From positions 1 to 54,176 of IMG/VR virus record IMGVR_UViG_2563366830_000017: DNA of 54,176 nt; one strand, written 5' to 3'. The notes beneath the pieces were generated by a model. That model was given only the letters and a program-made list of their open reading frames with translations. It was not told the DNA's origin and searched no databases. Positions 4,196 to 35,785 of the stretch are shown here, in pieces. The position numbers and the translations under genes are program-made. How positions within the stretch are numbered: the first letter of the stretch is position 1; each line of letters opens with the position of its first letter. This stretch comes from a virus (lineage: Duplodnaviria; Heunggongvirae; Uroviricota; Caudoviricetes).

Positions 4196-4993
4196 TTAAA
4201 CTGCTAGTTGCAATTGCATTTCAAAGCGGTCGCGTTGTTCACAATACGCAAGAGAACCAGGGCTATTGTGTGCCTCAATCCGTTCTACCATTAATGCTGC
4301 GCGTGTCTCTTTACTTGCAGGTGCATAAGCCCCAGACCAGGCTTTATCAATACCGATGTTTCGAGCGACGTTCGTACTATCTGCGCTGGCTAAGGGTAAT
4401 TTTGTGAATATCAGCGGATTTAACATGCGCAATCCATGTAGTTTCGTAACCGGCTGACCATGCCCATCAACAATGTGACGAATCAGGTCTTTCATTCTGG
4501 CTACCGCAAGAGTTGGGCGCTTTACGTCATAGTCGCCACAACTACCGATAGCCACTCGCGGAAACTCATTGCACAAATGAATAAATCGCTCGTCACTTTC
4601 ATTCATGTGCCACACTGGAACGCCAGCTAGTTTTCCGTGAGGCCACTCATTCAGAAGCGCATCATTTTCCTCCTCTCCGCCATCAATAACATCCGGGATA
4701 ATGGCAAAATCGAATCCTGGGTGATTCTTCCAGCGAGCAACAAACTCGTAGTAATCGCTCCAGTCGATTTTGTTTTTGCCAGCTGCTTTCCAGGCGGTGA
4801 ATGCACCGTTGTCCAGCGCGAACGACTGACAGTATTCAGTCGCGAGATTGATCTGGCCTGAATGCGCAAAACTGATAAACGCATGTCGCCCTTTCCATGC
4901 TCTCATTGCGCACGTATCAGGAGTAATAGGCCCACCGTGGTAGTGAATCATCTCACTCTCCTTTGATGCGAATGCCAGTAGCGCGGATTGCAT
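4196..4993 (-). CDS. Hypothetical protein (265 aa), b-region accessory gene
   Basis: Long ORF in operon with neighbours; no family confidently recognised. Confidence 0.55.
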   Translation of the reverse strand: MQSALLAFASKESEMIHYHGGPITPDTCAMRAWKGRHAFISFAHSGQINLATEYCQSFALDNGAFTAWKAAGKNKIDWSDYYEFVARWKNHPGFDFAIIPDVIDGGEEENDALLNEWPHGKLAGVPVWHMNESDERFIHLCNEFPRVAIGSCGDYDVKRPTLAVARMKDLIRHIVDGHGQPVTKLHGLRMLNPLIFTKLPLASADSTNVARNIGIDKAWSGAYAPASKETRAALMVERIEAHNSPGSLAYCEQRDRFEMQLQLAV

Positions 4994-5360
4994 CGATGAC
5001 TTCAGAAACTTTGTATGCCATTACCGTTTGGTAATCATCGTGAAAATCTGTTCGATGAAGCATGCTGCTACGTTCCGGGAGCAGTATTTCCCGCGCTTCC
5101 AGTTCTGCAATGCGCTTTTTTGCTGCTTCCAGTTCATCCAGTAATTCCAGCACGGTAGCCGGATTAGCCTTGGCAACAAAATCCCGGACTGGCTTACAAT
5201 CAATCTCCGCAATGGGTTGATACGATGTGTAGCCATGCTGTCTTGTATAACTACCGTGACGAATAACGAAAAAATCACCATTTATTTTTTTAGCCTGCCA
5301 CTTATCTTCACCGGCTTTCTCTGCCGCTTCACGCAGTGCCTGAGAGTTAATTTCGCTCAC
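4953..5360 (-). CDS. Ea22-like protein (Ead/Ea22 family)
   Basis: N-terminus MSEINSQALREAAE and C-terminus IRIKGE match my recollection of lambda Ea22 termini; coiled-coil-like middle. Confidence 0.6.
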   Translation of the reverse strand: MSEINSQALREAAEKAGEDKWQAKKINGDFFVIRHGSYTRQHGYTSYQPIAEIDCKPVRDFVAKANPATVLELLDELEAAKKRIAELEAREILLPERSSMLHRTDFHDDYQTVMAYKVSEVIDAIRATGIRIKGE

Positions 5361-5578
5361 GTCGAACCTCTCTGTTTACTGATAAGCTCCAGATCTTGCT
5401 GGCAACTGGCACAAGTCCGACAACCCTGAACGGCCAGTCGTCTTCGTTCATCTATCGGATCGCCACACTCACAACAATGAGTGGCAGATATAGCCTGGTG
5501 GTTCAGGCGGCGCATTTTTATTGCTGTGTTGCGCTGTAATTCTTCAATTTCTGATGCTGAATCAATTATGTCTGCCAT
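5357..5578 (-). CDS. TraR/DksA-family C4 zinc-finger protein (lambda orf73-like)
   Basis: 73-aa ORF with CCECGDPIDERRR...CRTCASCQ motif typical of TraR/DksA zinc finger. Confidence 0.75.
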   Translation of the reverse strand: MADIIDSASEIEELQRNTAIKMRRLNHQAISATHCCECGDPIDERRRLAVQGCRTCASCQQDLELISKQRGST

Positions 5579-5676
5579 CTTTCATTAATCCCTGAATTGT
5601 TGGTTAATACGCTTGAGGGTGAATGCGAATAATAAAAAAGGAGCCTGTAGCTCCCTGATGATTTTGCTTTTCATGT

Positions 5677-5892
5677 TCACCGTTCCTTAAAGACGCCGTT
5701 CAACATGCCGATCGCCAGGCTTAAATGAGTCGGTGTGAATCCCATCAGCGTTACCGTTTCGCGGTGCTTCTTTAGTACGCTACGGCAAATGTAATCGACG
5801 TTTTTATCCGGAAACTGCTGTCTGGCTTTTTTGATTTCAGAATTAGCCTGACGGGCAATGCTGCGAAGGGCGTTTTCTTGCTGAGGTGTCAT
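5677..5892 (-). CDS. Hypothetical small protein
   Basis: ORF track 5677..5958; internal Met (MTPQQENALRSIARQ...) chosen as likelier start. Confidence 0.35.
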   Translation of the reverse strand: MTPQQENALRSIARQANSEIKKARQQFPDKNVDYICRSVLKKHRETVTLMGFTPTHLSLAIGMLNGVFKER

Positions 5893-5968
5893 TGAACAAG
5901 CCCCATGTCGGCAAGCATAAGCACACAGAATATGAAGCCCGCTGCCAGAAAAATGCATTCAGTGGTTG

Positions 5969-6160
5969 TCATACCTGGTCTCTCTCATCTGCTTCTGCTT
6001 TCGCCACCATCATTTCCAGCTTTTGTGAAAGGGATGCGGCTAACGTATGAAATTCTTCGTCTGTTTCTACTGATATTGGCACAAACCTGACTCCAATTTG
6101 AGCGAGGCTATGTGCCATCTCGATACTCGTTCTTAACTCAACGGGAGATGCTTTGTGCAT
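5969..6160 (-). CDS. Hypothetical small protein (63 aa)
   Basis: ORF in operon context upstream of exo. Confidence 0.35.
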   Translation of the reverse strand: MHKASPVELRTSIEMAHSLAQIGVRFVPISVETDEEFHTLAASLSQKLEMMVAKAEADERDQV

Positions 6161-6311
6161 ACAGCTCCCCGTTTATTATTTATCTCCTCAGCCAGCCGCT
6201 GTGCTTTCAGGGGATTTCTGATAACAGAAAGGCCGGGAAATACCCAGCCTCGCTTTGTAATGGAGTAGACGAAAGTGATCGCGCCCACCCGGATATTATC
6301 GTGAGGATGCG

Positions 6312-6992
6312 TCATCGCCATTGCTCCCCAAATACAAAACCAATTTCAGCCAGTGCCTCGTCCATTTTTTCGATGAACTCCGGCACCATCTCGTCAAAAC
6401 TCGCCATGTACTTTTCATCCCGCTCAACCACGACATAATGCAGGCCTTCACGCTTCATACGCGGGTCATAGTTGGCAAAGTACCAGGCATCTTTTCGCGT
6501 CACCCACATGCTGTACTGCACCTGGGCCATGTAAGCCGACTTTATGGCCTCGAAACCACCGAGCCGGAACTTCATGAAATCCCGGGAGGTAAACGGGCAT
6601 TTCAGCTCAAGGCCATTGCCGTCACTGCATAAACCATCGGGAGAGCAGGCGGTACGCATACTTTCGTCGCGATAGATGATCGGGGATTCAGTAACATTCA
6701 CGCCGGAAGTGAATTCAAACAGAGTTCTGGCGTCGTTCTCGTACTGTTTTCCCCATGCCAGCGCCTTAGCATTAACTTCCGGAGCCACACCGGTGCAAAC
6801 CTCAGCCAGCAGGGTGTGGAAGTAGGACATTTTCATGTCAGGCCACTTTTTTCCGGAGCGGGGTTTTGCTATCACATTGTGAACTTCTGAAGCGGTGATG
6901 ACGCCGAGCCGTAATTTGTGCCACGCATCATCCCCCTGTTCGACAGCTCTCACGTCGATTCCGGTACGCTGCAGGATAATGTCCGGTGTCAT
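6312..6992 (-). CDS. exo: Lambda exonuclease (Red-alpha)
   Basis: 226-aa [43 protein letters not shown]... matches lambda Exo. Confidence 0.97.
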
Positions 6993-12098: not shown

Positions 12099-12796
12099 AA
12101 AACATCGCCGCACAGATGGTTAACTTTGACCGTGAGCAGATGCGCCGGATCGCCAACAACATGCCGGAACAGTACGACGAAAAGCCGCAGGTACAGCAGG
12201 TAGCGCGGATCATCAACGGTGTGTTCAGCCAGTTACTGGCAACTTTCCCGGCGAGCCTGGCTAACCGGGACCAGAACGAACTGAACGAAATCCGCCGCCA
12301 GTGGGTTCTGGCTTTCCGGGAAAACGGGATCACCACAATGGAACAGGTTAACGCAGGAATGCGCGTAGCCCGTCGGCAGAATCGACCATTCCTGCCATCA
12401 CCCGGGCAGTTTGTCGCCTGGTGCCGGGAAGAAGCATCCGTTACCGCCGGACTGCCAAACGCCAGCGAGCTGGTTGATATGGTTTACGAGTATTGCCGGA
12501 AGCGTGGCCTGTATCCGGACGCAGAGTCTTATCCATGGAAATCAAACGCGCACTACTGGTTGGTTACCAACCTGTACCAGAACATGCGGGCCAATGCGCT
12601 GACTGACGCGGAATTACGGCGTAAAGCTGCCGATGAGCTGACCTGTATGACCGCGCGAATTAACCGTGGTGAGGCGATACCTGAACCAGTAAAACAACTT
12701 CCTGTCATGGGCGGTAGGCCTCTAAATCGTGCACAGGCTCTGGCGAAGATCGCAGAAATCAAAGCGAAGTTCGGACTGAAAGGAGCAACTGTATGA
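12095..12796 (+). CDS. P: Replication protein P (DnaB helicase loader)
   Basis: 233-aa ORF MKNIAAQMVNFDREQMRRIANNMPEQYDEKPQVQQVA... matches lambda P. Confidence 0.97.
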   Translation: MKNIAAQMVNFDREQMRRIANNMPEQYDEKPQVQQVARIINGVFSQLLATFPASLANRDQNELNEIRRQWVLAFRENGITTMEQVNAGMRVARRQNRPFLPSPGQFVAWCREEASVTAGLPNASELVDMVYEYCRKRGLYPDAESYPWKSNAHYWLVTNLYQNMRANALTDAELRRKAADELTCMTARINRGEAIPEPVKQLPVMGGRPLNRAQALAKIAEIKAKFGLKGATV

Positions 12797-12966
12797 CGGG
12801 CAAAGAGGCAATTATTCATTATCTGGAGACGCACAAGAGCTTCTGTGCGCCGGACGTTGCTGCGACAACAGGTGTGACATTAACCAGCATAAATCAGGCT
12901 GCGGCAAAAATGGCGCGGGCAGGAATCCTGGTCATTGATGGTAAGGTCTGGCGAACGTTTGTTTAA
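12793..12966 (+). pseudogene. ren: ren, C-terminally truncated (57 aa versus 96 aa in lambda as I recall it)
   Basis: Hand translation MTGKEAIIHYLETHKSFCAPDVAATTGVTLTSINQAAAKMARAGILVIDGKVWRTFV-stop; lambda-like N-terminus then stop. Confidence 0.55.
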
Positions 12967-13112
12967 CGGTTAGCTACTCAGGATGATAGGGCGGGGCAAG
13001 TGAGTATGAAGCGGATTTTCAGGAATGCCATCAGAGTTTGGAAATAAAGTGGGTTTTCTAGTGGCAAGAGACTTGATAATATTTAGTTCTTTAAATCCAA
13101 GGAGATAGGGTT

Positions 13113-13607
13113 ATGAGAAAATTTATTATAGCCTTTGTCATAAGTGCCTCGTTTACTGCAAATGCTGGTGTAGAGAAGTTAGGGTCGTGGATAACAAAGT
13201 CTGAGATAAATAAAATGACTGACCAGACTGACTTTGTGGCTCTTAATTTATCACCAGATTCATATAACAAAGCAGGTACTGATCGTGCAACTTCACTGGT
13301 GTTGCGTTGTAGTGATAACAAAACAGATGCCTATTTATCATTCAATGATTATATGGGTTCGGACAACCCAAGAATTACAGTGCGGTTAGATGGCGGAAAG
13401 CCGGTCAAGAGTGCTTGGGGAGGTGGGGAAGGCGGTGATTCTGCATTTGCTCCACAACCAATACAATTTATAAAGACCTTGGCTAAGCATAAAAAAGCTA
13501 TTTTTGGGTTTGAACCTTATGGATCAACTATGCAAGTAGTTGAGTTTGACTTGTCTGAGATTGATAAGGTTGTGGAAAAAATTTCACAGTCTTGCAATTG
13601 GAAATGA
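13113..13607 (+). CDS. Secreted hypothetical protein (signal peptide), AT-rich moron
   Basis: MRKFIIAFVISASFTANA signal peptide; own downstream terminator; not part of canonical lambda nin region. Confidence 0.65.
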   Translation: MRKFIIAFVISASFTANAGVEKLGSWITKSEINKMTDQTDFVALNLSPDSYNKAGTDRATSLVLRCSDNKTDAYLSFNDYMGSDNPRITVRLDGGKPVKSAWGGGEGGDSAFAPQPIQFIKTLAKHKKAIFGFEPYGSTMQVVEFDLSEIDKVVEKISQSCNWK

Positions 13608-13624
13608 CAAAAAAATTTCATATG

Positions 13625-13651
13625 AACCCAGTTGGCGCTGGGTTTTTTATT
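13625..13651 (+). terminator. Rho-independent terminator
   Basis: AACCCAG-TTGGCG-CTGGGTT hairpin followed by TTTTTTATTT. Confidence 0.7.
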
Positions 13652-14244
13652 TCAGTAGCCAATAATGCATTCAAAATCTCTTACTTGAGAAACGGCCTAT
13701 TTGAGATTTCAGTCGTGGCAGGATGATCAGTTGATTCGAGTATTGACGCATTTGCGTTCGGAGCGATTACAGTAGATTGTAAATAATAATGAGAAACACA
13801 TAGCCACATAGCCACCCCGTGGTATTGAAACCATATAATGTTGGATTTGAAAACAGATCTTTTCCCATGTATTAATAACTACATCCCCGCGAGTGATTCA
13901 AAAAGGAGGGCCCAATTTTGTCCGAGTTTTTGTATTCCCCCGCATGCCGCTGCGGAGCACTACATCTGAGTGTCTGACTAGGGGATAAAATTAGACTGGA
14001 TAGTGAGAAGAAAGTGGCGCGCTAGGCTGTGCCGAGTGCTACCAGTACACCTTGGGGGTGTGCAGCTTTCGCCGAGACTGTAGTGGGTATCGGTTAATGC
14101 ACGAAAAACCGAGAGGTCAGACAACCAATTTGCCGTAGGATTGTTTCCGGTGCGATACCGGTCTACTAACTGAAAGCAATGCGAAAAAGCATAAACTCGG
14201 TCCTTCAGTCGCCCTACACACTATTTACTAAGAAGGGCTGAAGC

Positions 14245-14445
14245 ATGGATACAATTATTACATGGATGGGAGATCGTCTGTTGGGGGGGACACAAAAATC
14301 CGATCTGCAGCAGATGGCGATCACTGGATTAACTTCCGCGATTTGTTCAACAATTTTGTACACTGAAAAATTAAAACATGGTGAGCCTATTAACCCAAAC
14401 GAAGAAGAAAAACTTTATAGGCTTTGGTATGAAGGAAACGCTTGA
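14245..14445 (+). CDS. Hypothetical small ORF (66 aa), coding status doubtful
   Basis: Only ORF of 60 aa or more in a ~1-kb stretch; no recognised features. Confidence 0.25.
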   Translation: MDTIITWMGDRLLGGTQKSDLQQMAITGLTSAICSTILYTEKLKHGEPINPNEEEKLYRLWYEGNA

Positions 14446-16714: not shown

Positions 16715-17797
16715 TTAGAACTGGTAAACCAGACCTACAGCGACGATGTCGTCGGTATCAATACCAGCTGTTTTGGTAAACTTACTATCGTCAATTAAGT
16801 TGATTTTGTAATCAACAAAAGTGGACATGTTTTTATTAAAGTAGTAAGTAGCACCGACATCGACATACTTGACTAAGTCTCGGTCACCATGAACACCAAG
16901 GTCTTTACCTTTTGACTGAAGGTAAGCAACAGATGGGCGCAGACCGAAGTCAAACTGATATTGTGCTACTGCTTCAAAGTTTTGTGCTTTGTTTGCAATA
17001 TGGTTATTACCAAAAACGGTCATATTCTGAGTTTCAGAATATGTGGTAGCCAGATAGATATTGTTCGCATCATATTTCAGGCCTGCAGCCCATACTTCCG
17101 CATTTTTGCCGGAGGCATTGAATTTGCTCTTACCATAGGCGACCTGACCGTCAGTGCGATCTGATTTAGCATAGGTTGCACCCACGCCGAATCCTTCATA
17201 CTCATAAGTAGTGGAGAAACCGAAACCATCACCATTGGCTTCAGTTACGTCAGTGCGGTCATTTTTACCCTGATACTGAGCAGCAAAGTTCAGGCCATCG
17301 ACCAGACCAAAGAAGTCGTTGTTACGATAAGTTGCAACACCAGTAGTGCGACCAGTCATGAACACATCTGTTTGGGTCCAGGTATCACCACCGAATTCTG
17401 GCAGAACGTCAGTCCACGCACCGATGTCGTATGCTACACCGTAGTTACGGCCGTAATCGATTGAGCCGTAATCACCAAATTTCAGGCCTGCAAATGCAAG
17501 ACGGGTTTTGTCTTTGGAAGAACCTTGAGATTCAGCGCGGTTGCCTTTGAATTCATATTCCCACTGACCGAAACCAGTCAGTTGATCGTTGATTTGGGTT
17601 TCACCTTTGAAGCCAAGACGGGCATAAGTAGTATCACCATCATCTGCATCATTAGAGGAGAAGTAGTGCTTAGCATTAACTTTCCCGTACAGATCCAGCT
17701 TGTTACTGTCTTTATTATAAATTTCAGCTGCCTGAGCAGACATCGCCATCAGTACTGATGCAGCTACAGCAGAAATTGCCACTGTTAATTTTTTCAT
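16715..17797 (-). CDS. nmpC: Outer membrane porin NmpC/Lc-type (OmpC family), prophage moron
   Basis: Signal peptide [23 protein letters not shown], porin-like sequence ending in ...VGLVYQF; start set at MKKL. Confidence 0.9.
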
Positions 17798-18369
17798 CGT
17801 GAGCCCTTTTTTTGAACTATTATTAAAAAATGATGTCACTGCGCGATAAATATTCATCTAATCAATGTGATTATTTCAAGATGTAAGTTTTGGTTTCTCG
17901 TTTGATTTGTGAAGTAGATCTCTATTTTTATCTGAACTTTTTTCTATCGAATCCTATTCATGGCTCTTGGCTGAATAAAAATAAATCTATTAGCCAATTT
18001 ATATTAATGGCTGTTATTTATAAGTGCTCTATAATTTGAAGGTTCAATTTAAATCGGCTAAAAATAACGCTGGAAATTATTTGTTGGTTATTTGTTGAGA
18101 TTTGCTTATGTATTTGTAGTGGTGTTTTCAATACTCGGTAGCATTCTCGCAAATATCATTTAGTGGTTTACGTACGTAAAAAATTGGTTATGCTGTTAAG
18201 AGTGGTTACTTCGTCACACAGCTTAAACCCGCCGTCGAGCGGGTTTTTCCATTTTTTGAGTCTCGATATTAGCTGATAACCCAATACCTGAGTTATTCAC
18301 TGACTCCGAGTCTGTTACGTTTCGTAGTATTCCCTCAATTTACACCCGCTTTGTCTGCGAGGTGGGGTT

Positions 18370-26753: not shown

Positions 26754-27029
26754 ATGTCGATGTACACAACCGCCCAGCTGCTGGCGGCAAATGAGCAGAA
26801 ATTTAAGTTTGATCCGCTGTTTCTGCGTCTCTTTTTCCGTGAGAGCTATCCCTTCACTACGGAGAAAGTCTATCTCTCACAAATTCCTGGACTGGTAAAC
26901 ATGGCGCTGTACGTTTCGCCGATTGTTTCCGGTGAGGTTATCCGTTCCCGTGGCGGCTCCACCTCTGAATTTACGCCGGGATATGTCAAACCCAAGCACT
27001 TAGCATGGCTTTCTGAGGCTTTCGTGTAG
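26754..27029 (+). pseudogene. E: Major capsid protein E, 5-prime fragment (82 lambda-like codons then 10 foreign codons and stop) created by insertion
   Basis: MSMYTTAQLLAANEQKFKFDPLFLRLFFRESYPFTT...GYVKPKH matches lambda E; then LAWLSEAFV-stop. Confidence 0.9.
26989..26998. repeat. Left copy of 10-bp direct repeat AACCCAAGCA at island junction
   Basis: Identical 10-mer at 38323..38332; lambda-like E sequence ends here. Confidence 0.75.
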
Positions 27030-27110
27030 TTGCTGGTTTTTACACTTAATCTTTTGATAATAAAGAATAAGTTTATCTGGCGCTTTCACTGAATTTTCCT
27101 CGTTATCTGT

Positions 27111-27146
27111 GTGTTGCAATCATCTCTGTATTGCAGCTTGTATTGC
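27111..27146 (+). repeat. Candidate integrase arm-type sites: three copies of TGT(A/G)TTGC(A) near left end
   Basis: GTGTTGCA, TGTATTGCA, TGTATTGC read in sequence; two more TGTATTGCA copies at 38227..38247. Confidence 0.45.
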
Positions 27147-27161
27147 TTTTTGGGGCTAAAA

Positions 27162-28397
27162 ATGGCTGGCGAGAACAAACTGAGCGACAAAGCGCTTAAA
27201 GGATATCTGGGGAAACCCAGAGAAAAGCAGATCACCATTGCTGATGGAAAGGGGCTTTCTATTCGTGTGAGTACTAAAGGGGCTGTGAGCTTTGTTTTCT
27301 TCTACAGGTTAGCAGGTGGCCGGGCTGCTCCGGTCTGGCTAACGTTGGGTAAATATCCTGATATGTCACTCAAACAGGCAAGGGAAAAGCGCGACGAGTG
27401 CCGTGGTTGGTTGGCTGACAAACGTGATCCGCGTATCCAGATTAAGATTCAGGCTGAAGAACGCTTAAAGCCGGTCACAGTGGAGGATGCACTAAATTAC
27501 TGGTATGAAAACTACTGTAAGGTGCGTCGTAAAACTCATGCTGTAACGCTTGGCAGATTTCGAAAGCATATCTTTCCCTATATCGGTCATTTGCCCGTAA
27601 ATGACACTCACCTATATGAATGGCTGGACTGTTTTGACCGAATTAAACGTAATGCACCAGTTATGGCGGCGTATGTTTTTTCTGACACTAAATTAGCTCT
27701 TCGTTTTTGTCGGGTACGCCAGTACGCGACGTGTGATGCTTTAAAGGATTTGCGCATGAGTGATGTGGGGCAGATTGCAGGTAAGCGGGATCGGGTTCTG
27801 GATGAAGCCGAACTCGGCCAGCTCTGGAAGGCAATTTTTGTCGAGCCTGATTTAAAACTAATGTCTGAATACACGCGAAAAATGTTTGTGCTTTGTACAG
27901 TATTTGGATGTCGAATGAGTGAAGCCCGATTATCAGAATGGAGCGAATGGGATCTCGAAAGTTGGGTTTGGACTGTGCCAAAAGATCACTCAAAAACTGG
28001 TGTTGAAATCGTCAGACCAGTACCTGAAATTCTACGACAGTGGGTAACGGATGTTCACGAAGAGACAAAACATACTGGTTATGTGCTGGGAAGTCTGCGA
28101 ATTAGAGAAAGCGTAAGCAAGATTGGGGGGAAAATCGGTAAACGTTTGGGCCATGAAAAACAATGGTCACTACACGACCTTAGAAGAACGCTATCTACTC
28201 ATCTAAGTGATCTCGGTGTTGAATTTTATGTAGTAGAACAACTGTTAGGCCATGCGCTACCTGGCGTGGCAGGTGTTTACAACCGGAGTAAGTTTATGGC
28301 TAAAAAACTGGATGCTCTGGAACTCTGGACTACATATCTCAATAGCATCGCAGCTGCTGATTCAAAAGTGACAATCCTCAAACAAAAGGCTGGTTAG
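27162..28397 (+). CDS. Tyrosine integrase, P4-type (island-encoded)
   Basis: 411 aa from ATG; C-terminal HxLRxT...HxxxxxxxxY-like catalytic region (HELR...HDLRRT...LGHA...VY); adjacent to left junction. Confidence 0.85.
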   Translation: MAGENKLSDKALKGYLGKPREKQITIADGKGLSIRVSTKGAVSFVFFYRLAGGRAAPVWLTLGKYPDMSLKQAREKRDECRGWLADKRDPRIQIKIQAEERLKPVTVEDALNYWYENYCKVRRKTHAVTLGRFRKHIFPYIGHLPVNDTHLYEWLDCFDRIKRNAPVMAAYVFSDTKLALRFCRVRQYATCDALKDLRMSDVGQIAGKRDRVLDEAELGQLWKAIFVEPDLKLMSEYTRKMFVLCTVFGCRMSEARLSEWSEWDLESWVWTVPKDHSKTGVEIVRPVPEILRQWVTDVHEETKHTGYVLGSLRIRESVSKIGGKIGKRLGHEKQWSLHDLRRTLSTHLSDLGVEFYVVEQLLGHALPGVAGVYNRSKFMAKKLDALELWTTYLNSIAAADSKVTILKQKAG

Positions 28398-28398
28398 C

Positions 28399-28629
28399 AT
28401 GAAAAAAATGGCAATTGTTGATAAAAAGGGTCTGGAGTACATTCCTAACATTGACCGAATGATCCGTGAGAAAGAATGTCGGGAGCTAACTACTCTTGCG
28501 AACAGCACACGCTGGAAGCTGGAGAAGGAAGGAAAATTTCCTAAGCGGATCAAGATTGGTTCCACTGCTGTTGCATATCGTCTTTCAGAAGTGCAGGCAT
28601 GGATTCGAGGTGAGTGGGAAACAACTTAA
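28399..28629 (+). CDS. AlpA-family HTH regulator/excisionase-like protein
   Basis: 76 aa; placed immediately after integrase as in P4-like and PICI elements. Confidence 0.7.
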   Translation: MKKMAIVDKKGLEYIPNIDRMIREKECRELTTLANSTRWKLEKEGKFPKRIKIGSTAVAYRLSEVQAWIRGEWETT

Positions 28630-28636
28630 CTATTAG

Positions 28637-29467
28637 GTGGGCATTGTGGCTATATTTCATTATACAGATCTTTTTGGTTTGAAAGGTATATTAGACTCTA
28701 ATTCTTTATGGGCTACAAACATATATTTCTTAAATGATAAAGAGGAGTCTAACCATGGATGTGAATGCTTTCGAAATACAATTAAAATAGTTGATGACAA
28801 TATCATTCCAAAAGATAAGAAAACTATTTTGCTCAAGTCTCTTGACATGTATGAGAAAGGGAGGTTACAAAAAGAAAAAGGGATTGATAAACATGTTTAT
28901 AGCATCTCTTTTTGTAAGGAAAACGATAAGTTAAGTCAGTGGAGAGGTTACGGAAATAAACAGGGTGTTTGCATTGAGTTTGATGCGGATGAACTTGTGA
29001 GCTTTTCTCAAAATATTTATTTAAATTGTGTTGCACATGATGTTATATATTCAAATAATAACGATATTACTAAGATGAGTAAGGAGTTGGGAGAGTTTTT
29101 TTCTTGTAATGGTATTAACATTAAAGAAATGAATGATCATTTTGTAACAATGGTCTCTACGTATCAATTTATATCTAAATACATCCCATTTTTTAAACAT
29201 CCTAGTTTTATCGAAGAGAATGAATTTAGATTGGTATTTACTCCGTGGATGCAAATGCCAGATGTGCACTTCAGAATAAATAATAATGGAATCATCCCTT
29301 ATATCATCATTGATAATAAAGATAATAGAAAGTTACCAATTAAAAGCATTACAATTGGCCCGACAAACGATTATGATTTCATTGAGGCTGGTATAAAAAT
29401 GTTCTTGGATTCAAGAGGATTTAGTTCTGTGGAAATTAAATCCTCATCAATTCCATTCAGGGGGTAA
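28637..29467 (+). CDS. DUF2971-like protein (AT-rich cargo gene)
   Basis: N-terminal FHYTDLFGLKGILDSNSLWATNIYFLNDKEE resembles the DUF2971 signature as I recall it; GTG start; low GC. Confidence 0.55.
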   Translation: MGIVAIFHYTDLFGLKGILDSNSLWATNIYFLNDKEESNHGCECFRNTIKIVDDNIIPKDKKTILLKSLDMYEKGRLQKEKGIDKHVYSISFCKENDKLSQWRGYGNKQGVCIEFDADELVSFSQNIYLNCVAHDVIYSNNNDITKMSKELGEFFSCNGINIKEMNDHFVTMVSTYQFISKYIPFFKHPSFIEENEFRLVFTPWMQMPDVHFRINNNGIIPYIIIDNKDNRKLPIKSITIGPTNDYDFIEAGIKMFLDSRGFSSVEIKSSSIPFRG

Positions 29468-29598
29468 GGATTAACACTTTTAATCTGTGATATTATAAAA
29501 ATGGTGGATAAAGGCGACCAGAATTGGTCGCCAATGTGAGTATATAGTTAGCCTTAATCAGAATACGAGGTTATCGCCTGATAGGCAATGTGAACAGT

Positions 29599-29955
29599 TC
29601 AATATTTAGGTGGTTCAACAAGAGCGTTTATCATTGCTCTCAAATTATCGCGAACACTTATCCAAGTCTGTTCTGCTCGTTCTAACTCATCAGTGTACAA
29701 CTTTAATGTTTTATCTATGCCATATGTGGCTATTAAATTTATAGCTTCTTGTAATTTTTCAGGATTATTCCTTCTTGGGGGAGTGAATATACCACGGATT
29801 TTTCCGGTAATTAAAGCTTTACGGTGTCTACATAGAATACCTTTACTTCCTGCTGGACAATTACAAGTCATGATTAGCGAGCCAGAATCGTTTGATACAG
29901 TGACTATGTATACATCCAAACTACTGCTACTTGTTGCGAAGAATTCGTATTTCAT
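29599..29955 (-). CDS. SWIM-type zinc-finger protein (CxCx8CxH), AT-rich cargo gene
   Basis: Motif CNCPAGSKGILCRH seen in translation; convergent with DUF2971-like gene. Confidence 0.5.
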   Translation of the reverse strand: MKYEFFATSSSSLDVYIVTVSNDSGSLIMTCNCPAGSKGILCRHRKALITGKIRGIFTPPRRNNPEKLQEAINLIATYGIDKTLKLYTDELERAEQTWISVRDNLRAMINALVEPPKY

Positions 29956-29982
29956 GTGTTAGCTCCTTGACTTCAATTATTC

Positions 29983-30114
29983 TTATCCTTTTGGTTCAAT
30001 ACCGCGCCGTAGCAGCTCTTTGCGCCCTAATTCTTTAAGCCAGTTGGCTAGGCTTATGCCGTCGCTCTGCGCTTCTTTGTCGAATTGCTCTTTTAGCTCT
30101 GGAGAAATTCGCAT
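29983..30114 (-). CDS. Small basic protein, possible ribbon-helix-helix repressor (43 aa from ATG)
   Basis: MRISPELKEQFDKEAQSDGISLANWLKELGRKELLRRGIEPKG; divergent from downstream plus-strand operon. Confidence 0.4.
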   Translation of the reverse strand: MRISPELKEQFDKEAQSDGISLANWLKELGRKELLRRGIEPKG

Positions 30115-30313
30115 TCTGAATTGTGGAGATTGCCCATCACCCTTAGGACTTTTATCGCGTTTGATCGTTGACAAGTGACCACCTATTGAATTAGCCTTTT
30201 CATTGTTAGGTGGCCACCTTAACACGGGGGCACTTAAAAAAGCAAAGCCCGAAGGTGCTGGGAACACCAACGGGCTTCTAACCACCAACGATAGCAACAG
30301 TATCGAGGTAGCT

Positions 30314-30517
30314 ATGAGAAATCATACCACACACCCGCAAGGGCGGGACCCGCACAACCTGAATAAATACATCTGGCGTTTTATCGCCTTGAGTACGGCA
30401 CAACCGCGCATGATTACCATCGAGGCCATCAGCGAACAGGAAGCCCGCCAGCAATCCCCAACTGGCTGCGTGATGGTATTCGCCGCCCGTATTCGTCAGG
30501 AGGTGTGCCGTGCTTAA
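30314..30517 (+). CDS. Hypothetical small protein, first gene of island early operon
   Basis: ORF track 30203..30517; ATG at 30314 chosen. Confidence 0.4.
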   Translation: MRNHTTHPQGRDPHNLNKYIWRFIALSTAQPRMITIEAISEQEARQQSPTGCVMVFAARIRQEVCRA

Positions 30518-30695
30518 AACCTTCCGTGTATTTGCCCGAGCTGTTAACCCACTGGGCCACACAATTGGTATCACTCAGAACGTGAAGGCTGTTAATGTTC
30601 AGACGGCTATTGCTGCGGTGAGAAGCGAATCATCAGAATATGGCTTATCACAAGTCATTATTTCAGCAGTGTATGAATTAAAAGAGGTGCATTAA
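30510..30695 (+). CDS. Hypothetical small protein
   Basis: 61-aa ORF, overlapping starts/stops in operon. Confidence 0.45.
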   Translation: MLKTFRVFARAVNPLGHTIGITQNVKAVNVQTAIAAVRSESSEYGLSQVIISAVYELKEVH

Positions 30696-30886
30696 TGCAG
30701 GAAATCACATTACACGAAGCCGCTGAACGTGCGCACCAGACAGAAATTATTTGCCGCCTTCTTGAGGTATACCCGAACAAAATTACAGATGCTGATATAT
30801 CCGCGCTGGCGAGCCTACTGGCGCGCCTTTCGGGAAGTGTCGCTAGTTTCCTGATTGAGGAAGAAAGTAAGCTGGTGGGGGATTAA
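30695..30886 (+). CDS. Hypothetical small protein
   Basis: 63-aa ORF, translationally coupled in operon. Confidence 0.45.
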   Translation: MQEITLHEAAERAHQTEIICRLLEVYPNKITDADISALASLLARLSGSVASFLIEEESKLVGD

Positions 30887-31108
30887 ATGAATACAGAACG
30901 GGAAGTCTTTTTTAAATTGTTAGCATGTGCAGAAAGTCCATTAACTTTAAATAATTCAGCAAAAGCAATATTAAATATGTGGCTTGATTGCATAAATGAC
31001 AATGAAGATGCAAATATTGCTTATGGCCTGTTGTCACTTATTGATGAATCAGCAGAAAAACTCAATGACGCAATAAATAGTGCCCTGCTATCAAATAAGT
31101 CGAGTTAA
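30887..31108 (+). CDS. Hypothetical small protein
   Basis: 73-aa ORF in operon. Confidence 0.45.
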   Translation: MNTEREVFFKLLACAESPLTLNNSAKAILNMWLDCINDNEDANIAYGLLSLIDESAEKLNDAINSALLSNKSS

Positions 31109-31125
31109 GTCGAGGAATAAATAAT

Positions 31126-31425
31126 ATGGAAATGAAAAATTCTGGCTTTATTGCCAGCGGCCCCGCTCGGCCTGAATTTATGAACGGCGATATTTACCGC
31201 GATAAATACGGCGGCACGGTAACGATTAAAGGCGTGGCAGAACGGCGCATCACTTACCGCCGTGAGGGGTATAGCTATGACTGCGTGATGCCTGTTTATC
31301 AGTTCCGGCGTGATTTTTCCCTGGTATATGCCGCACCCCGCAGTAAGCCCATCAGCAGGGAAAAAGCGCGGGGAAACATCCAGAAAATGAAAAGCATGAT
31401 TAACGCATTCAGGGGCAAAAAATGA
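31126..31425 (+). CDS. Hypothetical protein (99 aa)
   Basis: ORF immediately upstream of and overlapping primase start. Confidence 0.5.
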   Translation: MEMKNSGFIASGPARPEFMNGDIYRDKYGGTVTIKGVAERRITYRREGYSYDCVMPVYQFRRDFSLVYAAPRSKPISREKARGNIQKMKSMINAFRGKK

Positions 31426-33173
31426 AACTGGCACCGAACTTAAAAAAACAGCCACGCGACAGACTGACAGAGGTAATCATCTTTGCAGGTAGTGATGCGT
31501 GGAGCCATGCGAAAGAGTGGCGGGAATGGGCGGGTAAACATATTGCCGCCGACGATGTGCCGCCTGTCGTGCTGGCTGATGAGCAACTGAAAAATATCAC
31601 CGATTACCGGATCATTGATGAAGATCGTCAGTGTGTGCGTGTTTACCGCGCAGGACATATCACAGAGCACAGCATGACGCAGATTGTTACGTTACTGGCT
31701 GTGGCTGGAGTGAAGACCGTACACGAATACGCGGGGATTACTGACACCAGCCCAGTGGATTTATCCGAGCAGTTGCCGCGACTCAAAGAGGAATGCGAGC
31801 GTGGGGAAAGTCTGGTGCTTAATCTTCCGACGAAGCAAAAGGCGCAACTTTCACAGATGGCAGACAGTGAACGTGCACAACTACTTGCCGATCGCTTTGA
31901 TGGTGTGTGTGTTCATGCAGAAAGTGAAATCGTCCACGTATGGCGCGGCGGGGTATGGTGTCCGGTCAGCACAATGGAGCTGAGCCGCGAAATGGTGGCG
32001 ATCTATTCAGAGCACAGGGCCACGTTCAGCAAACGTGTAATCAATAACGCCGTGGAAGCGTTAAAAGTTATTGCCGACCCCATGGGGGAGCCGTCCGGTG
32101 ATTTGCTACCGTTCACTAATGGTGTGCTTAACCTGAAAACGGGGGAATTTTCTCCGCACTCGCCGGAGCACTGGAGCACCACGCACAATGGCATTGAGTA
32201 CACGCCACCAGTAGCAGGGGAAAACATCCGCGATAATGCGCCAAATTTCCATAAATGGCTTGAACATGCCGCAAGAAAAGACCCGCGCAAGATGATGCGT
32301 ATATGTGCCGCGTTATACATGATTATGGCGAACCGCTACGACTGGCAGATGTTCATTGAGGCCACCGGAGACGGGGGAAGCGGTAAGAGTACATTTACCC
32401 ATATTGCCACCCTGCTTGCTGGCAAACAGAACACCGTAAGCGCGGAGATGACATCACTCGATGATGCAGGAGGGCGCGCGCAGGTTGTCGGGAGTCGTCT
32501 TATCGTCCTTGCCGATCAGCCGAAATATACGGGGGAAGGCACGGGCATCAAGAAAATCACGGGAGGCGATCCCGTTGAAATTAACCCGAAATATGAGAAG
32601 CGATTCACGACGATAATAAGGGCGGTGGTACTGGCAACCAATAACGACCCGATGATCTTTACCGAACGGGCCGGAGGTGTGTCACGCCGTCGGGTGATTT
32701 TCCGGTTCGACAACATTGTAAGGGAGGACGAAAAAGACAAGGAATTACCGGAAAAGATAGCGGCAGAAATCCCCGTAATTATCCGCCGCTTGCTGGCTAA
32801 TTTTGCTGACCCTGAAAAGGCACGGGCTTTATTACTGGAACAGCGTGACGGTGATGAAGCTCTGGCAATAAAGCAGCAAACGGATCCGGTTGTTGAGCTT
32901 TGCGCGGCGCTGGAGTTTCTGGAGGAAGCTCGTGGGCTAATGATGGGCGGTGGTGGTGACACCGTGAAGTACACGACCAGAAACAGCCTTTACCGTGTCT
33001 ATATGGCCTTCATGGCATACACAGGAAAGGGGAAATGTTTGAGCGTGAATGAGTTCGGAAAGGCTATGAGGTCAGCGGCGAAAGTTTACGGATATGAATA
33101 TATTACGCGAAAAGTTAAGGGAGTCACGCAGACCAACGCAACGACTACTGATGATTGCGATGCGTTTTTATAA
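31422..33173 (+). CDS. Primase/replication protein (P4-alpha C-terminal-like, with Walker A GDGGSGKST)
   Basis: 583 aa; P-loop GDGGSGKS seen; followed by iteron array. Confidence 0.8.
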   Translation: MKLAPNLKKQPRDRLTEVIIFAGSDAWSHAKEWREWAGKHIAADDVPPVVLADEQLKNITDYRIIDEDRQCVRVYRAGHITEHSMTQIVTLLAVAGVKTVHEYAGITDTSPVDLSEQLPRLKEECERGESLVLNLPTKQKAQLSQMADSERAQLLADRFDGVCVHAESEIVHVWRGGVWCPVSTMELSREMVAIYSEHRATFSKRVINNAVEALKVIADPMGEPSGDLLPFTNGVLNLKTGEFSPHSPEHWSTTHNGIEYTPPVAGENIRDNAPNFHKWLEHAARKDPRKMMRICAALYMIMANRYDWQMFIEATGDGGSGKSTFTHIATLLAGKQNTVSAEMTSLDDAGGRAQVVGSRLIVLADQPKYTGEGTGIKKITGGDPVEINPKYEKRFTTIIRAVVLATNNDPMIFTERAGGVSRRRVIFRFDNIVREDEKDKELPEKIAAEIPVIIRRLLANFADPEKARALLLEQRDGDEALAIKQQTDPVVELCAALEFLEEARGLMMGGGGDTVKYTTRNSLYRVYMAFMAYTGKGKCLSVNEFGKAMRSAAKVYGYEYITRKVKGVTQTNATTTDDCDAFL

Positions 33174-33179
33174 AAAATG

Positions 33180-33430
33180 GCAATGGTTATCTACCTTGTC
33201 TACCTGACTGAAAGAAAATACTTTTATTTCAATGTATTAATGCAGGTAGATAACTATTTTTCACTGTCTACCTGTTATCTACCTTATCTACCCATTTTTG
33301 TAGACAGGTAAGGAGACGGGTAGAGATGAGGTAGACAGCTATTTGGGGCTGTCTACCTCCCTGAAACCCGCGCCATTACTGGCCTGATAACTAATCAGGT
33401 AGACAAGGTAGACAAGGTGGTGGTGCACAA
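33180..33430. repeat. ori: Island replication-origin iterons (GGTAGACA / TGTCTACC family, both orientations)
   Basis: At least 10 copies of (A)GGTAGAC(A) or its complement within 250 bp directly after primase gene. Confidence 0.75.
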
Positions 33431-33462
33431 AAAACTTTTTAAACGAGGGGGTAAAAATAAAA

Positions 33463-33720
33463 ATGCACACATCAGGAAAACTGAACAAACATATAAAGCC
33501 ACATTACCGCGCCCTTGATATGGCTGAACACTGGCTAAGGGTGGCGATTAAGGCAATAGACCGCAACGCCGGGGAAGGATACGCGAAAGCACATCCCGAA
33601 CTGATAAGCGCATTCATGACAACGGCGGCTGCAAACTTTGCCACGCTGACCGAACGGGAGATTGCTGAAGCGGAGGAAGTGACAACAATCAATATTAAGT
33701 CCGGAGAGCAGGCAGCATGA
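33463..33720 (+). CDS. Hypothetical protein (85 aa)
   Basis: ORF overlapping ssb start. Confidence 0.45.
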   Translation: MHTSGKLNKHIKPHYRALDMAEHWLRVAIKAIDRNAGEGYAKAHPELISAFMTTAAANFATLTEREIAEAEEVTTINIKSGEQAA

Positions 33721-34166
33721 CGGCGCAAATATCAGTTTACGGGCGGTTGGTGGACGACCCGCAGACAAAACAGACCAGCAAGGGCACCCCCATGACGCTG
33801 GCGCGTATGGCGGTATCACTGCCCTGCAGTCAGTCGGATGACGGTCTGGCGACGTTGTGGTTATCTGTCCTGGCGTTTGGCAGACAAGCCGACGCGCTGG
33901 CAAAGCATCACAAAGGCGAACTCCTGAGCGTGGCGGGTAACATGCAGATGAGCCAGTGGACTGGACAGAACGGCGAAACGCGGCAGGGCTGGCAGGTTAT
34001 CGCAGACAGCGTAATCAGTGCGCGATCGGTGCGACCGGGCGGCAAAAAAGGCCAACAGGGGCAGGCTACTGACGCACTGAACAGAGCAAAACAACAGGCA
34101 GATCAGCAAGGAAGCCAGCCACCAGAGGGAGATAATGAGCAATGGGGAGATGATATCCCGTTTTAA
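33717..34166 (+). CDS. ssb: Single-stranded DNA-binding protein
   Basis: OB-fold-like N-region, Gln/Gly-rich linker and acidic C-terminal tail ending DDIPF. Confidence 0.85.
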   Translation: MTAQISVYGRLVDDPQTKQTSKGTPMTLARMAVSLPCSQSDDGLATLWLSVLAFGRQADALAKHHKGELLSVAGNMQMSQWTGQNGETRQGWQVIADSVISARSVRPGGKKGQQGQATDALNRAKQQADQQGSQPPEGDNEQWGDDIPF

Positions 34167-34382
34167 ATATTGCCAATAAAAAAAGCCGGAAAAAATAAAT
34201 TTTCCGGCATGCTACATAAATCCCGACCAAAGGGAGTGAAGATATTAACACTAATTGTCCGCACTGAAGTTGTCACCCCAAAACTTTATACAACATTGCA
34301 CTCGGTTGCATGTGTTCGCATGACAAATATCGGTGATAGCATATATCCACAATTATTTTTAATGAATGCAAAGAGGATGCGT

Positions 34383-35423
34383 ATGGTTGATTTATATTCG
34401 CCTACTCAGCTTGTACAGGTAGTTAATGCTGTAGATGTACAAAAACAACTAAATGCGTTATTTACCAGTTTGTTTTTTACTCGCTCGGTAATGTTTGAAT
34501 CGCGCGATATTATTCTTGATACAATCGACGATCCAAATATCCCAATTGCAGCGTTTTGTTCTCCTATGGTGGGTAGTAAAGTTTCACGTGACGAAGGGTA
34601 CGAATCAAAAACAATTCGTCCAGGCTATATGAAGCCGAAAAGCAGCATTGATCCAAATAAGTTAGCTGTGCGCCCTGCTGGTGTGTCACCTGAGCAATAC
34701 AATGCTTTTGGGGCGCGTAATATTAAAGTTAAACAGGCGATTGTAAATCAGGCTAAAGCTATTCGTGCACGTATTGAATGGCTTGCTGTTCAGGCAATCA
34801 CAACGGGGAAAAATATCATTGAGGGCGATGGTATTGAACGTTATGAGCTGGACTGGAATATAAAACCACAAAATATCATCACTCAGTCTGGCGGTACTGA
34901 GTGGTCAGGTAAGGATAAAGAAACTTTTGATCCAAATGATGATATTGAGAGCTACGCAGAATTTAGTGAGGGCGTCACTAATATCATCATTATGGGTGGT
35001 AATGTATGGAAGAAATACCGTTCATTCAGAGCGATAAAAGAGGCTTTGGATACCCGTCGTGGTTCTAATTCCGAACTGGAAACGGCCCTTAAAGACCTTG
35101 GTGATTCGGTGAGTTTTAAAGGGTATATGGGCGATGTTGCGATTGTTGTTTACAGCGGGCGTTATACCGACGAGGACGGAACAGAAAAACATTTCCTTGA
35201 TCCTGATTTGATGGTGCTTGGCAATACGGCTCTTCAGGGGATTGTCGCCTATGGCGGTATTCAGGATCCGGAGCTAATCCGAATGGGGCTGACTAAAGCC
35301 GAACTTGCACCGAAAAACTATATTGTGCCTGGTGATCCGGCTATTGAATATGTGCAGACACATTCAGCACCACAGCCAATACCGGCCCGCATCAATCGTT
35401 TTGTTACCGTTCGCATTGGCTAA
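34383..35423 (+). CDS. Island-encoded major capsid protein, diverged homolog of lambda E
   Basis: Blocks shared with prophage E: NIITQSGGTEWSGKDKETFDPNDDIESYA, LDTRRGSNSELETALKDLG, YMGDVAIVVYSGRY, MVLGNT; ORF track 34170 start is upstream. Confidence 0.85.
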   Translation: MVDLYSPTQLVQVVNAVDVQKQLNALFTSLFFTRSVMFESRDIILDTIDDPNIPIAAFCSPMVGSKVSRDEGYESKTIRPGYMKPKSSIDPNKLAVRPAGVSPEQYNAFGARNIKVKQAIVNQAKAIRARIEWLAVQAITTGKNIIEGDGIERYELDWNIKPQNIITQSGGTEWSGKDKETFDPNDDIESYAEFSEGVTNIIIMGGNVWKKYRSFRAIKEALDTRRGSNSELETALKDLGDSVSFKGYMGDVAIVVYSGRYTDEDGTEKHFLDPDLMVLGNTALQGIVAYGGIQDPELIRMGLTKAELAPKNYIVPGDPAIEYVQTHSAPQPIPARINRFVTVRIG

Positions 35424-35432
35424 GGGGGAGCA

Positions 35433-35774
35433 ATGGCTACTCATTACACTGAACTCATGGCTGGCACTGAAGCACTGGTGACTACGCTGGGGATATTTTC
35501 AGCTAATAAAGGGGTAATTCCTGCATTTACGCCACTGATGCAGGAAGATGCAACAGGTGCACTGGTGGTATGGGATGGTTCGAGCGTAGGTAAAGCGGTT
35601 TATGTTTCCGCTGTACAAATCGACACCGCGAAAAAAACACAGGCTCAGGTCTATAAGACAGGTGTCTTAAATGTTGATGCTCTGAACTGGCCTGAGTCTG
35701 TTAAAGAACTGTCAGTAAAGATTGCAGCGTTTGTTGGCTCAGGTATTTCTGTTCAGCCGCTGGCTCGTGTGTAA
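35433..35774 (+). CDS. Island-encoded decoration protein, diverged homolog of lambda D
   Basis: THYTEL, FTPLMQEDATGALVVWDGSSVGKAV, YKTGVLNVDALNWPE, AAFVGSGISV align with prophage D motifs. Confidence 0.8.
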   Translation: MATHYTELMAGTEALVTTLGIFSANKGVIPAFTPLMQEDATGALVVWDGSSVGKAVYVSAVQIDTAKKTQAQVYKTGVLNVDALNWPESVKELSVKIAAFVGSGISVQPLARV

Positions 35775-35785
35775 AGGGGGATACA

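What the first reader, a model, noticed from the sequence alone, without database searches (positions are those of the whole stretch)
13113..13651. Secreted-protein moron inserted where lambda carries the remainder of ren and early nin genes
ren is truncated to 57 codons and is followed by an AT-rich gene for a 164-aa protein with a typical Sec signal peptide and its own rho-independent terminator. This is the pattern of a lysogenic-conversion moron; function is unknown.
Basis: partly seen in the sequence, partly recalled or inferred. Interest (0 to 1): 0.4.

Follow-up and report, generated by a model that had tools for sequence, protein, structure and literature searches.

The report
Prophage moron encoding periplasmic VasI/TagO-like protein
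A small self-contained gene cassette in this lambda-like prophage makes an exported protein of the poorly understood VasI/TagO family; it is real, conserved and mobile among phages, its job is untested, and the best guess is that it blocks infection by other phages at the cell envelope.

Summary
ORF 13113-13607 encodes a 164-aa protein with a Sec-type signal peptide, a strong ribosome-binding site, low G+C and an intrinsic terminator at 13624-13651. The account of ren needs correcting. ren stops at an in-frame TAA at codon 58, and ren homology continues to about 13037, so only the last ~18 codons are replaced.

The protein is not an orphan. It belongs to the VasI/TagO family (Pfam PF11319, just above threshold; phrog_1848), and RefSeq already labels it "type VI secretion system-associated protein TagO". 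That label is not supported by context. No locus examined looked like a type VI secretion cluster: about 40 near-identical copies follow O-P-ren in E. coli lambdoid phages. The 54-81% identical homologues in Klebsiella, Salmonella, Pantoea and Serratia prophages sit just upstream of the tape-measure gene, which is the site of the HK97 gp15 moron.

Most lineages keep an extended -10 promoter element and their own terminator. dN/dS is about 0.1. The predicted fold matches periplasmic IalB. SDIC4B, a periplasmic protein shown to protect E. coli against phage, gives the same two best fold matches.

Most likely function, inferred and untested: periplasmic superinfection exclusion. Verdict: a new member of a known kind, of moderate interest.

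The parts
12793..12966 (+). ren' ORF: 57 codons, ended by an in-frame TAA at 12964-12966
   Evidence: It is 71% identical to phage Turner Ren over 77 aligned positions, with the stop where Ren has Tyr. It matches phrog_7054 over its full length and phrog_142 (Ren-like).
12967..13037 (+). Ren-homologous sequence beyond the stop codon (pseudogenised tail). Ren codons ~83-100 are missing.
   Evidence: tblastn and blastn against phage Turner ren. PGAP annotates a ren pseudogene at the same place in VR50.
13046..13059 (+). Degenerate 3' half of a terminator (AAAGTGGGTTTTCT). It aligns with the terminator of the upstream gene in pre-tape-measure homologue loci and marks the left end of the transplanted unit.
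   Evidence: DNA alignment A3; upstream sequences.
13074..13082 (+). Predicted extended -10 promoter element TGaTAATAT, 39 nt before the ATG
   Evidence: Read from the sequence. TGnTAnnnT occurs at -39 to -46 in 23 of 33 distinct upstream sequences across lineages. The default sigma-70 scan, which requires both hexamers, did not report it. It has not been tested experimentally.
13099..13104 (+). Shine-Dalgarno AAGGAG
13113..13166 (+). Sec (SPase I) signal peptide, residues 1-18. Predicted cleavage is ANA|G.
   Evidence: Sequence features, conservation of signal-peptide character in A1, pLDDT <50 for residues 1-17.
13167..13607 (+). Mature VasI/TagO-like domain: 146 aa, pI 5.9, with the family-conserved residues C66 and C161. 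The range includes the stop codon.
13624..13651 (+). Intrinsic terminator: 9-bp stem, 4-nt loop and T-run
   Evidence: It is conserved in homologue loci, with compensatory changes in the stem.
13687..13772 (+). Right-hand joint and the 3' remnant (last 28 codons) of a Bro-N/P22_AR_C antirepressor-like gene. This is not part of the cassette; it marks the cassette's right boundary.
   Evidence: blastn and tblastn against IdasGreatGrand and Turner; Pfam hits for the intact genes.

Best explanation
Shown or strongly supported (about 0.9):
- Window ~13046-13651 is an autonomous prophage moron. It consists of an extended -10 promoter, a ribosome-binding site, a 164-aa ORF with a Sec signal peptide, and an intrinsic terminator.
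- Its product is a ~16-kDa soluble periplasmic beta-sandwich protein of the VasI/TagO (PF11319) family. It probably carries a C66-C161 disulfide.
- The cassette most likely came from the chaperone/tape-measure junction of an enterobacterial siphophage tail module and was transplanted behind ren in an E. coli lambdoid phage. It then spread as an O-P-ren'-gene block.
- In a lysogen it would be transcribed from its own promoter. During lytic growth it would also be read through from pR under N antitermination.

Inferred (about 0.4): the protein is a superinfection-exclusion or anti-phage factor that acts in the periplasm.
- It would bind either the tail tip or tape-measure of an incoming siphophage, or the host envelope component that tail uses.
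- Binding would stop the genome-delivery conduit from forming across the periplasm and inner membrane.
- This would not block the outer-membrane receptor and would not need a type VI secretion system.
For: Anatomy.

Family:
- Pfam VasI scores 27.5 against a cut-off of 26.5.
- A profile built from alignment A1 finds 3835 cluster representatives. These include canonical-length VasI proteins such as P0040 (E 1.9e-27), which scores 74.6 bits on Pfam VasI.

Exported domain:
- C66 and C161 are near-invariant across the family, and 155 of 173 members have an N-terminal hydrophobic segment.
- VCA0118 is predicted to be exported (PMC3166118).

Phage cargo rather than T6SS component:
- 40 loci have the context O-P-ren'-gene.
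- The other ~55 loci are mostly viral contigs. At least 47 of them have a long (>=500 aa) ORF starting close downstream, taken as the tape-measure gene.
- Four further Klebsiella loci have a TMP_3 gene 1.1 kb downstream, inside a tail module.
- The 11 Pfam-annotated loci show only phage families.
- Erwinia phage vB_EhrS_49 has the site empty.
- Strong purifying selection acts on the mature part.

Function by analogy:
- The pre-tape-measure site is where the HK97 gp15 moron lies. gp15 is a prophage-expressed envelope protein that blocks genome injection in a manner dependent on the phage tail (PMC3594210).
- ES18 carries an unrelated lipoprotein gene with its own terminator at the same site.
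- TP-J34 Ltp targets the tape-measure protein (Bebeacua 2013, cited in PMC3952083).
- SDIC4B is a 157-aa protein with a Sec signal peptide and a VasI-like fold. On its own it gives 10-200-fold protection against phage in E. coli MG1655 (bioRxiv 10.1101/2024.01.28.577318; sequence from its supplement).
- Both proteins also have one invariant Cys in an early strand and one in the C-terminal helix.
- More distant VasI-domain genes are cargo at the ogr-distal end of P2-like prophages.
Against: - There is no experimental data on this protein or its close homologues in the libraries searched.
- PADLOC has no model that matches.
- Persistent linkage to the tape-measure gene could simply reflect vertical inheritance at a permissive insertion site.
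- The only experimentally studied family member, VCA0118, has a T6SS-related killing phenotype, not an anti-phage one.
- The promoter is a consensus match. It was not detected under the strict motif in about a third of the distinct upstream sequences, including the whole 67-69% identity group.
- The signal peptide was judged by rule, not with a trained predictor.
Confidence: 0.4

Rival explanations
1. T6SS-related accessory. The phage supplies an extra VasI/TagO paralogue. It either boosts the killing efficiency of the lysogen's own type VI secretion system, as VCA0118 does in V. cholerae, or interferes in the periplasm with incoming or resident T6SS machinery.
For: - Family membership.
- VCA0118 is exported. 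It is dispensable for Hcp/VgrG secretion but needed for full killing of amoebae and E. coli (PMC3166118).
- Some E. coli carry tagO in their T6SS-2 cluster (PMC10562709).
- PGAP uses this name.
- The C. rodentium prophage paper lists a prophage VasI-family protein as a putative virulence factor (PMC6456863).
Against: - No T6SS cluster context was seen in any locus examined.
- The TIGR03360 equivalog model scores 14.9 bits against a cut-off of 124.
- The protein lacks the ~40-60-residue N-terminal extension of canonical VasI.
- It is carried by free phages propagated on laboratory E. coli (IdasGreatGrand).
- A protein with the same fold works against phage in MG1655, which from my own knowledge has no T6SS.
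Confidence: 0.2
2. Another envelope-level lysogenic-conversion function, neither anti-phage nor T6SS-related. Examples are adhesion or invasion of host cells, serum or stress resistance, or modulation of another trans-envelope machine.
For: - The P2-like phage homologue also gives a weak Pfam IalB hit.
- The same prophage carries classical conversion genes such as Lom, a porin and, in VR50, Iss.
- Carrier strains include strains from humans, cattle and poultry.
Against: - A soluble periplasmic protein has no obvious route to the cell surface.
- The gene occurs in environmental and plant-associated hosts (Pantoea, Serratia, Pectobacterium, Xenorhabdus) and in phages isolated from mud. This argues against a function specific to an animal host.
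- The molecular role of IalB itself is unknown.
Confidence: 0.2
3. A tail-assembly or virion-associated protein of siphophages, which would make it a structural or morphogenetic gene rather than cargo.
For: In most non-E. coli loci it lies directly before the tape-measure gene, in the tail operon and in the same orientation.
Against: - It has a Sec signal peptide and a conserved Cys pair.
- It is bracketed by terminators.
- It is absent from a closely related tail module and from most of the 331 phage records that carry the neighbouring DUF6246 gene.
- In E. coli it sits in the early nin region of phages whose lambda-type G/T/H genes are contiguous.
Confidence: 0.03

Closest known systems
VasI / TagO (V. 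cholerae VCA0118; Pfam PF11319/DUF3121; TIGR03360)
   Same: It is homologous over residues ~20-164 and has the same near-invariant residues (W26, R65-C66, R91/D93, W102, F112, P135-Y136, C161, W163). It is an exported domain.
   Different: It is shorter: 164 aa against ~200-230, with no N-terminal extension. It fails the TIGR03360 equivalog cut-off. It is encoded in prophages, not in T6SS clusters. The function of VasI itself is listed as unknown in a 2026 review (PMC13584744).
HK97 gp15 moron (superinfection exclusion)
   Same: It is a small envelope-targeted product of an autonomous cassette. Homologues occupy the same chaperone/tape-measure junction. gp15 is expressed from the prophage and blocks genome injection depending on the incoming tail (PMC3594210).
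   Different: There is no sequence or fold relation. gp15 is a YebO-like inner-membrane protein, whereas this is a soluble periplasmic beta-sandwich. The copy in this window sits in the nin region.
SDIC4B (Serratia defence island candidate 4; Pfam PF27224)
   Different: There is no detectable sequence homology. It is encoded in chromosomal LptG-YjiA islands next to BrxR, not in prophages.
Bartonella IalB (PDB 3dtd; PF06776)
   Different: Sequence identity is 9%. It is an alphaproteobacterial chromosomal gene linked to erythrocyte invasion, and its mechanism is unknown.
Exported exclusion lipoproteins (TP-J34 Ltp; from my own knowledge also Cor and T5 Llp)
   Same: They are phage-encoded exported proteins that act on phage entry. 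Ltp targets the tape-measure protein (cited in PMC3952083).
   Different: They are lipid-anchored and unrelated in fold. From my own knowledge, Cor and Llp inactivate the outer-membrane receptor FhuA.

Membership tests
VasI/TagO protein family (PF11319) | Sequence match to the family profile above the curated threshold | tested here: met
   27.5 bits against a cut-off of 26.5, E 2.9e-6, residues 56-163. The margin is small, but the reciprocal profile search reaches canonical VasI at E ~1e-27.
VasI/TagO protein family (PF11319) | Equivalog of T6SS VasI (TIGR03360) | tested here: not met
   14.9 bits against a cut-off of 124.2.
T6SS-associated gene (Tag) in the functional sense | Encoded within or next to a type VI secretion gene cluster | tested here: not met
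   The window and 40 near-identical loci have the context O-P-ren'-gene. The other ~55 loci lie in phage tail modules. The Pfam-annotated neighbours are all phage families.
T6SS-associated gene (Tag) in the functional sense | Affects T6SS-dependent killing | not testable with these tools
   This needs competition assays.
Moron (Juhala/Hendrix sense) | Extra DNA relative to related phages, at a gene boundary | tested here: met
   It is absent from phage Turner at the same ren-ninB interval. The site is empty in Erwinia phage vB_EhrS_49. It occupies two unrelated genomic positions.
Moron (Juhala/Hendrix sense) | Base composition differs from the flanks | tested here: met
   35-43% G+C against 51-58%.
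Moron (Juhala/Hendrix sense) | Own terminator | tested here: met
   Hairpin and T-run at 13624-13651. It is conserved, with compensatory stem changes, in most homologue lineages.
Moron (Juhala/Hendrix sense) | Own promoter, and expression from the repressed prophage | tested here: inconclusive
   TGaTAATAT lies at 13074-13082. TGnTAnnnT occurs at -39 to -46 in 23 of 33 distinct upstream sequences. There is no transcript data.
Sec-exported periplasmic protein | Cleavable N-terminal signal peptide without a lipobox or Tat motif | tested here: met
   n/h/c regions and A-x-A were read from the sequence. Signal-peptide character is conserved across 20 homologues. Residues 1-17 are unstructured in the AF2 model. 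SignalP was not run.
Superinfection-exclusion / anti-phage protein | Reduces infection by other phages when expressed | not testable with these tools
SDIC4B family (PF27224) | Sequence homology | tested here: not met
   hhalign probability is 1.4% with the shallow profile and 0.2% with the deep profile.

The most novel reading that the evidence does not exclude
Small periplasmic VasI/IalB-fold proteins may form a general class of modules that engage phage-tail-like tubes as they cross the periplasm.
- Inside T6SS clusters they would help the outward-firing machine.
- Copies captured by temperate phages (this moron, the P2-like TagO genes) and by defence islands (SDIC4B) would block the inward-moving tape-measure or tail-tip conduit of infecting phages.

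If so, this gene would define a widespread single-gene periplasmic superinfection-exclusion family in Enterobacterales prophages. It would also give the long-unexplained T6SS protein VasI a testable mechanism.
Probability: 0.25. Interest if true: 0.65.

Novelty: new member of a known kind. Interest (0 to 1): 0.42.

Why it matters
VasI/TagO has been listed as a T6SS accessory of unknown function since 2011. A compact single-gene phage-borne version that can be expressed on its own is an easy handle for finding what the fold binds.

If it excludes phages at the periplasmic step, it adds a soluble periplasmic class to the few known entry-blocking proteins. It would also matter for phage therapy against Klebsiella, Salmonella and E. 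coli, where homologues are common in prophages: the Klebsiella variant P0027 is indexed in 515 blocks of the assembly collection.

It also shows that the RefSeq name "T6SS-associated protein TagO" is being applied to prophage cargo with no T6SS context.

Tried and rejected
- PDB sequence search gave nothing significant.
- Rfam and tRNA scans of the whole window found nothing.
- PADLOC gave no hits for the protein, its homologues, SDIC4B-family members or the neighbouring cargo genes.
- Profile-profile comparison with SDIC4B was not significant, with either a shallow or a 180-sequence profile. I therefore claim only fold-level similarity.
- The AlphaFold database fold library was unavailable.
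- The genome-contig scan returned only 3 loci, so context statistics rest on IMG/VR and the assembly look-ups.
- ES18 gp20, which lies at the same pre-tape-measure site, is not a homologue. It is a lipoprotein.
- I considered that ren was frameshifted, as PGAP notes for VR50. In this window it is a simple in-frame nonsense codon.
- I considered a structural or tail-assembly role and rejected it (see rival explanations).
- I looked for the families of the phages blocked by SDIC4B, to see whether they are siphophages. The paper and its supplement do not say.
- I could not measure the C66-C161 distance, because model coordinates are not exposed.

Full report
**1. What is there**

The ORF at 13113..13607 (+) is present and encodes 164 aa.
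- AAGGAG at 13099-13104 precedes it by 8 nt.
- A 9-bp G+C-rich hairpin at 13624-13645 with a T-run follows it.
- G+C falls to 35-43% between about 13000 and 13900, against 51-58% on both sides.
- The N-terminus MRKFIIAFVISASFTANA|GVEK has the layout of a Sec/SPase I signal peptide: two basic residues, an 11-residue hydrophobic core and A-x-A. It has no lipobox cysteine and no twin-arginine motif.
- The 20 aligned homologues vary in sequence here but keep that character.
- AlphaFold leaves only residues 1-17 at low confidence.
- The gene is under strong purifying selection. dN/dS of the mature part is 0.07-0.10 against homologues of 73-81% identity, and the signal region evolves faster.

**2. 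ren**

The 57-codon ren ORF (12793-12966) ends at an in-frame TAA where full-length Ren has tyrosine.
- Ren homology continues in the same frame to about codon 77.
- At DNA level, homology to phage Turner ren continues to window 13037, about codon 82 of 100.
- PGAP annotates the same locus in E. coli VR50 as a ren pseudogene.
- So the truncation is a nonsense mutation, and the cassette replaces only about the last 18 codons.
- The same ren' allele accompanies the gene in all 40 near-identical loci, always 320 nt upstream. O-P-ren'-gene therefore travels as one block.

**3. Family**

The protein is not an orphan.
- It matches Pfam PF11319 (VasI/EvfG/VC_A0118) at 27.5 bits against a cut-off of 26.5.
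- It matches phrog_1848, a family of unknown function, end to end.
- It fails the TIGR03360 equivalog model: 14.9 bits against a cut-off of 124.2.
- A profile built from 20 homologues finds 3835 cluster representatives. Many are canonical-length VasI proteins, for example P0040 at E 1.9e-27, which scores 74.6 bits on Pfam VasI.
- C66 and C161 are near-invariant across 180 representatives. 155 of 173 have an N-terminal hydrophobic segment. This fits an exported, disulfide-stabilised domain.
- RefSeq already calls the E. coli protein (WP_001224617.1) "type VI secretion system-associated protein TagO". It is present in 84 of 5426 complete E. coli genomes.

**4. Context**

No locus I examined looks like a T6SS cluster.
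- Copies at least 97% identical (phage IdasGreatGrand and 39 IMG/VR contigs) all follow O-P-ren' in lambdoid nin regions. Their right flanks vary.
- Homologues of 54-81% identity in Klebsiella, Salmonella, Pantoea and Serratia prophages, and in other IMG/VR contigs, lie in siphophage tail modules.
- In at least 47 loci a long ORF (>=500 aa), taken as the tape-measure gene, starts close downstream. In four Klebsiella loci a TMP_3 gene lies 1.1 kb downstream.
- The gene is accessory there. The neighbouring DUF6246 gene occurs in 331 phage records, but a close homologue occurs in only 3 and any homologue in 26.
- Erwinia phage vB_EhrS_49 has DUF6246 followed by the tape-measure gene after 41 nt.
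- ES18's annotators marked genes 18-20 at this junction as possible morons. gp20 is an unrelated lipoprotein with its own terminator.
- More distant VasI-domain genes (297 aa, 89.6 bits), each preceded by a zinc-ribbon gene, sit beyond ogr at the end of P2-like phages. One of these is C. rodentium phiSM, where the gene was previously listed as prophage cargo.

**5. The cassette as a mobile unit**

- Upstream of the ATG, 23 of 33 distinct sequences carry TGnTAnnnT at -39 to -46. In the window this is TGATAATAT at 13074-13082.
- Almost every lineage has an intrinsic terminator 16-34 nt after the stop. The stems differ by compensatory changes.
- DNA alignment shows that similarity between the window and the pre-tape-measure loci starts at a degenerate terminator half (13046-13059). 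That half matches the terminator of the donor's upstream gene. Similarity ends just after the cassette's own terminator.
- This points to transfer from a pre-tape-measure site into the lambdoid nin region.
- To the right, the window joins directly at 13685/13687 to the last 28 codons of a Bro-N/P22_AR_C gene. Compared with IdasGreatGrand it lacks 1.84 kb.

**6. Structure**

- The AF2 model (pLDDT 84) is a beta-sandwich with two helices.

**7. Function**

No experiment on this protein was found.
- For canonical VasI (VCA0118), deletion leaves Hcp/VgrG secretion intact but reduces killing (PMC3166118).
- A 2026 review still lists the function of TagO as unknown (PMC13584744).
- A 2024 preprint found that SDIC4B, described as VasI-like in fold, alone protects E. 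coli MG1655 10-200-fold against several phages.
- I recovered the SDIC4B sequence from the plasmid table in that preprint's supplement. It has a Sec signal peptide and belongs to PF27224.
- Its sequence homology to the window family is not detectable.
- The pre-tape-measure position is that of the HK97 gp15 exclusion moron (PMC3594210).
- Taking these together, I rate periplasmic superinfection exclusion as the most likely function (about 0.4).
- The alternatives are a T6SS-related role (about 0.2), another envelope conversion function (about 0.2) and a structural role (about 0.03).

**8. Verdict**

This is a genuine, well-delimited moron that carries a member of a known but functionally unexplained family. 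Interest is moderate. The gene is already annotated and had been noticed as prophage cargo, but its recurrent, autonomous carriage by phages gives a clear and cheap experimental route to the function of the VasI fold.

Noticed in passing
window ~27000-38340: An ~11.3-kb integrative element interrupts the prophage's lambda-E-type major capsid gene; the C-terminal part of that gene is ORF 38337-39113. The element encodes a tyrosine integrase (27111-28397), a DUF2971 protein, a D5-type primase-helicase (31422-33173), SSB, its own major capsid homologue (34170-35423), a lambda-D-like decoration protein (35433-35774), AlpA (35786-36169) and a 437-aa unknown protein on the minus strand. It looks like a phage satellite that carries its own capsid genes and has inserted into a helper-type capsid gene. 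The VR50 prophage has the capsid gene intact.
   Followed up: partly
window 13687-14445: This is a stretch with no ORF above about 50 codons and no family match. It is 94% identical to phages Turner and IdasGreatGrand, and 79% identical to Klebsiella phages over 13883-14218. It begins with the 3' remnant of a Bro-N/P22_AR_C gene. orf66 (14245-14445) is a shortened form of a 118-aa ORF in those phages; the window lacks 124 nt of the reference after 14434. There is no Rfam match.
   Followed up: partly
window 16715-17857 (-): A full-length OmpC/NmpC-type porin gene lies between the Q antiterminator and the lysis genes, on the opposite strand (Pfam Porin_1, 504 bits). VR50 has the same arrangement. 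This is a classical DLP12-type cargo gene.
   Followed up: no
L002 (phage Turner) 539-2654; L001 (IdasGreatGrand) 4786-6713: The interval between ren and ninB is a variable cargo site in related lambdoid phages. Turner carries an SMR-family (QacE-like) transporter and a large serine recombinase there. IdasGreatGrand carries the VasI-like gene and a Bro-N/P22_AR_C antirepressor-like gene.
   Followed up: partly
L098 4235-5465 (Escherichia phage 500465-2); also PhiR44_2 and C. rodentium phiSM: P2-like prophages carry a two-gene unit beyond ogr: a 110-aa zinc-ribbon protein followed by a 297-aa protein with a strong VasI domain (89.6 bits) and a weak IalB match. This is a second, independent capture of the VasI fold by temperate phages.
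   Followed up: partly
NZ_AP027877.1 1379524-1379844 (hit H55): One E. coli genome holds only the 3' 43% of the query region. It lies next to D-serine ammonia-lyase and outside the usual ren context, so it may be a fragment left by prophage decay.
   Followed up: no
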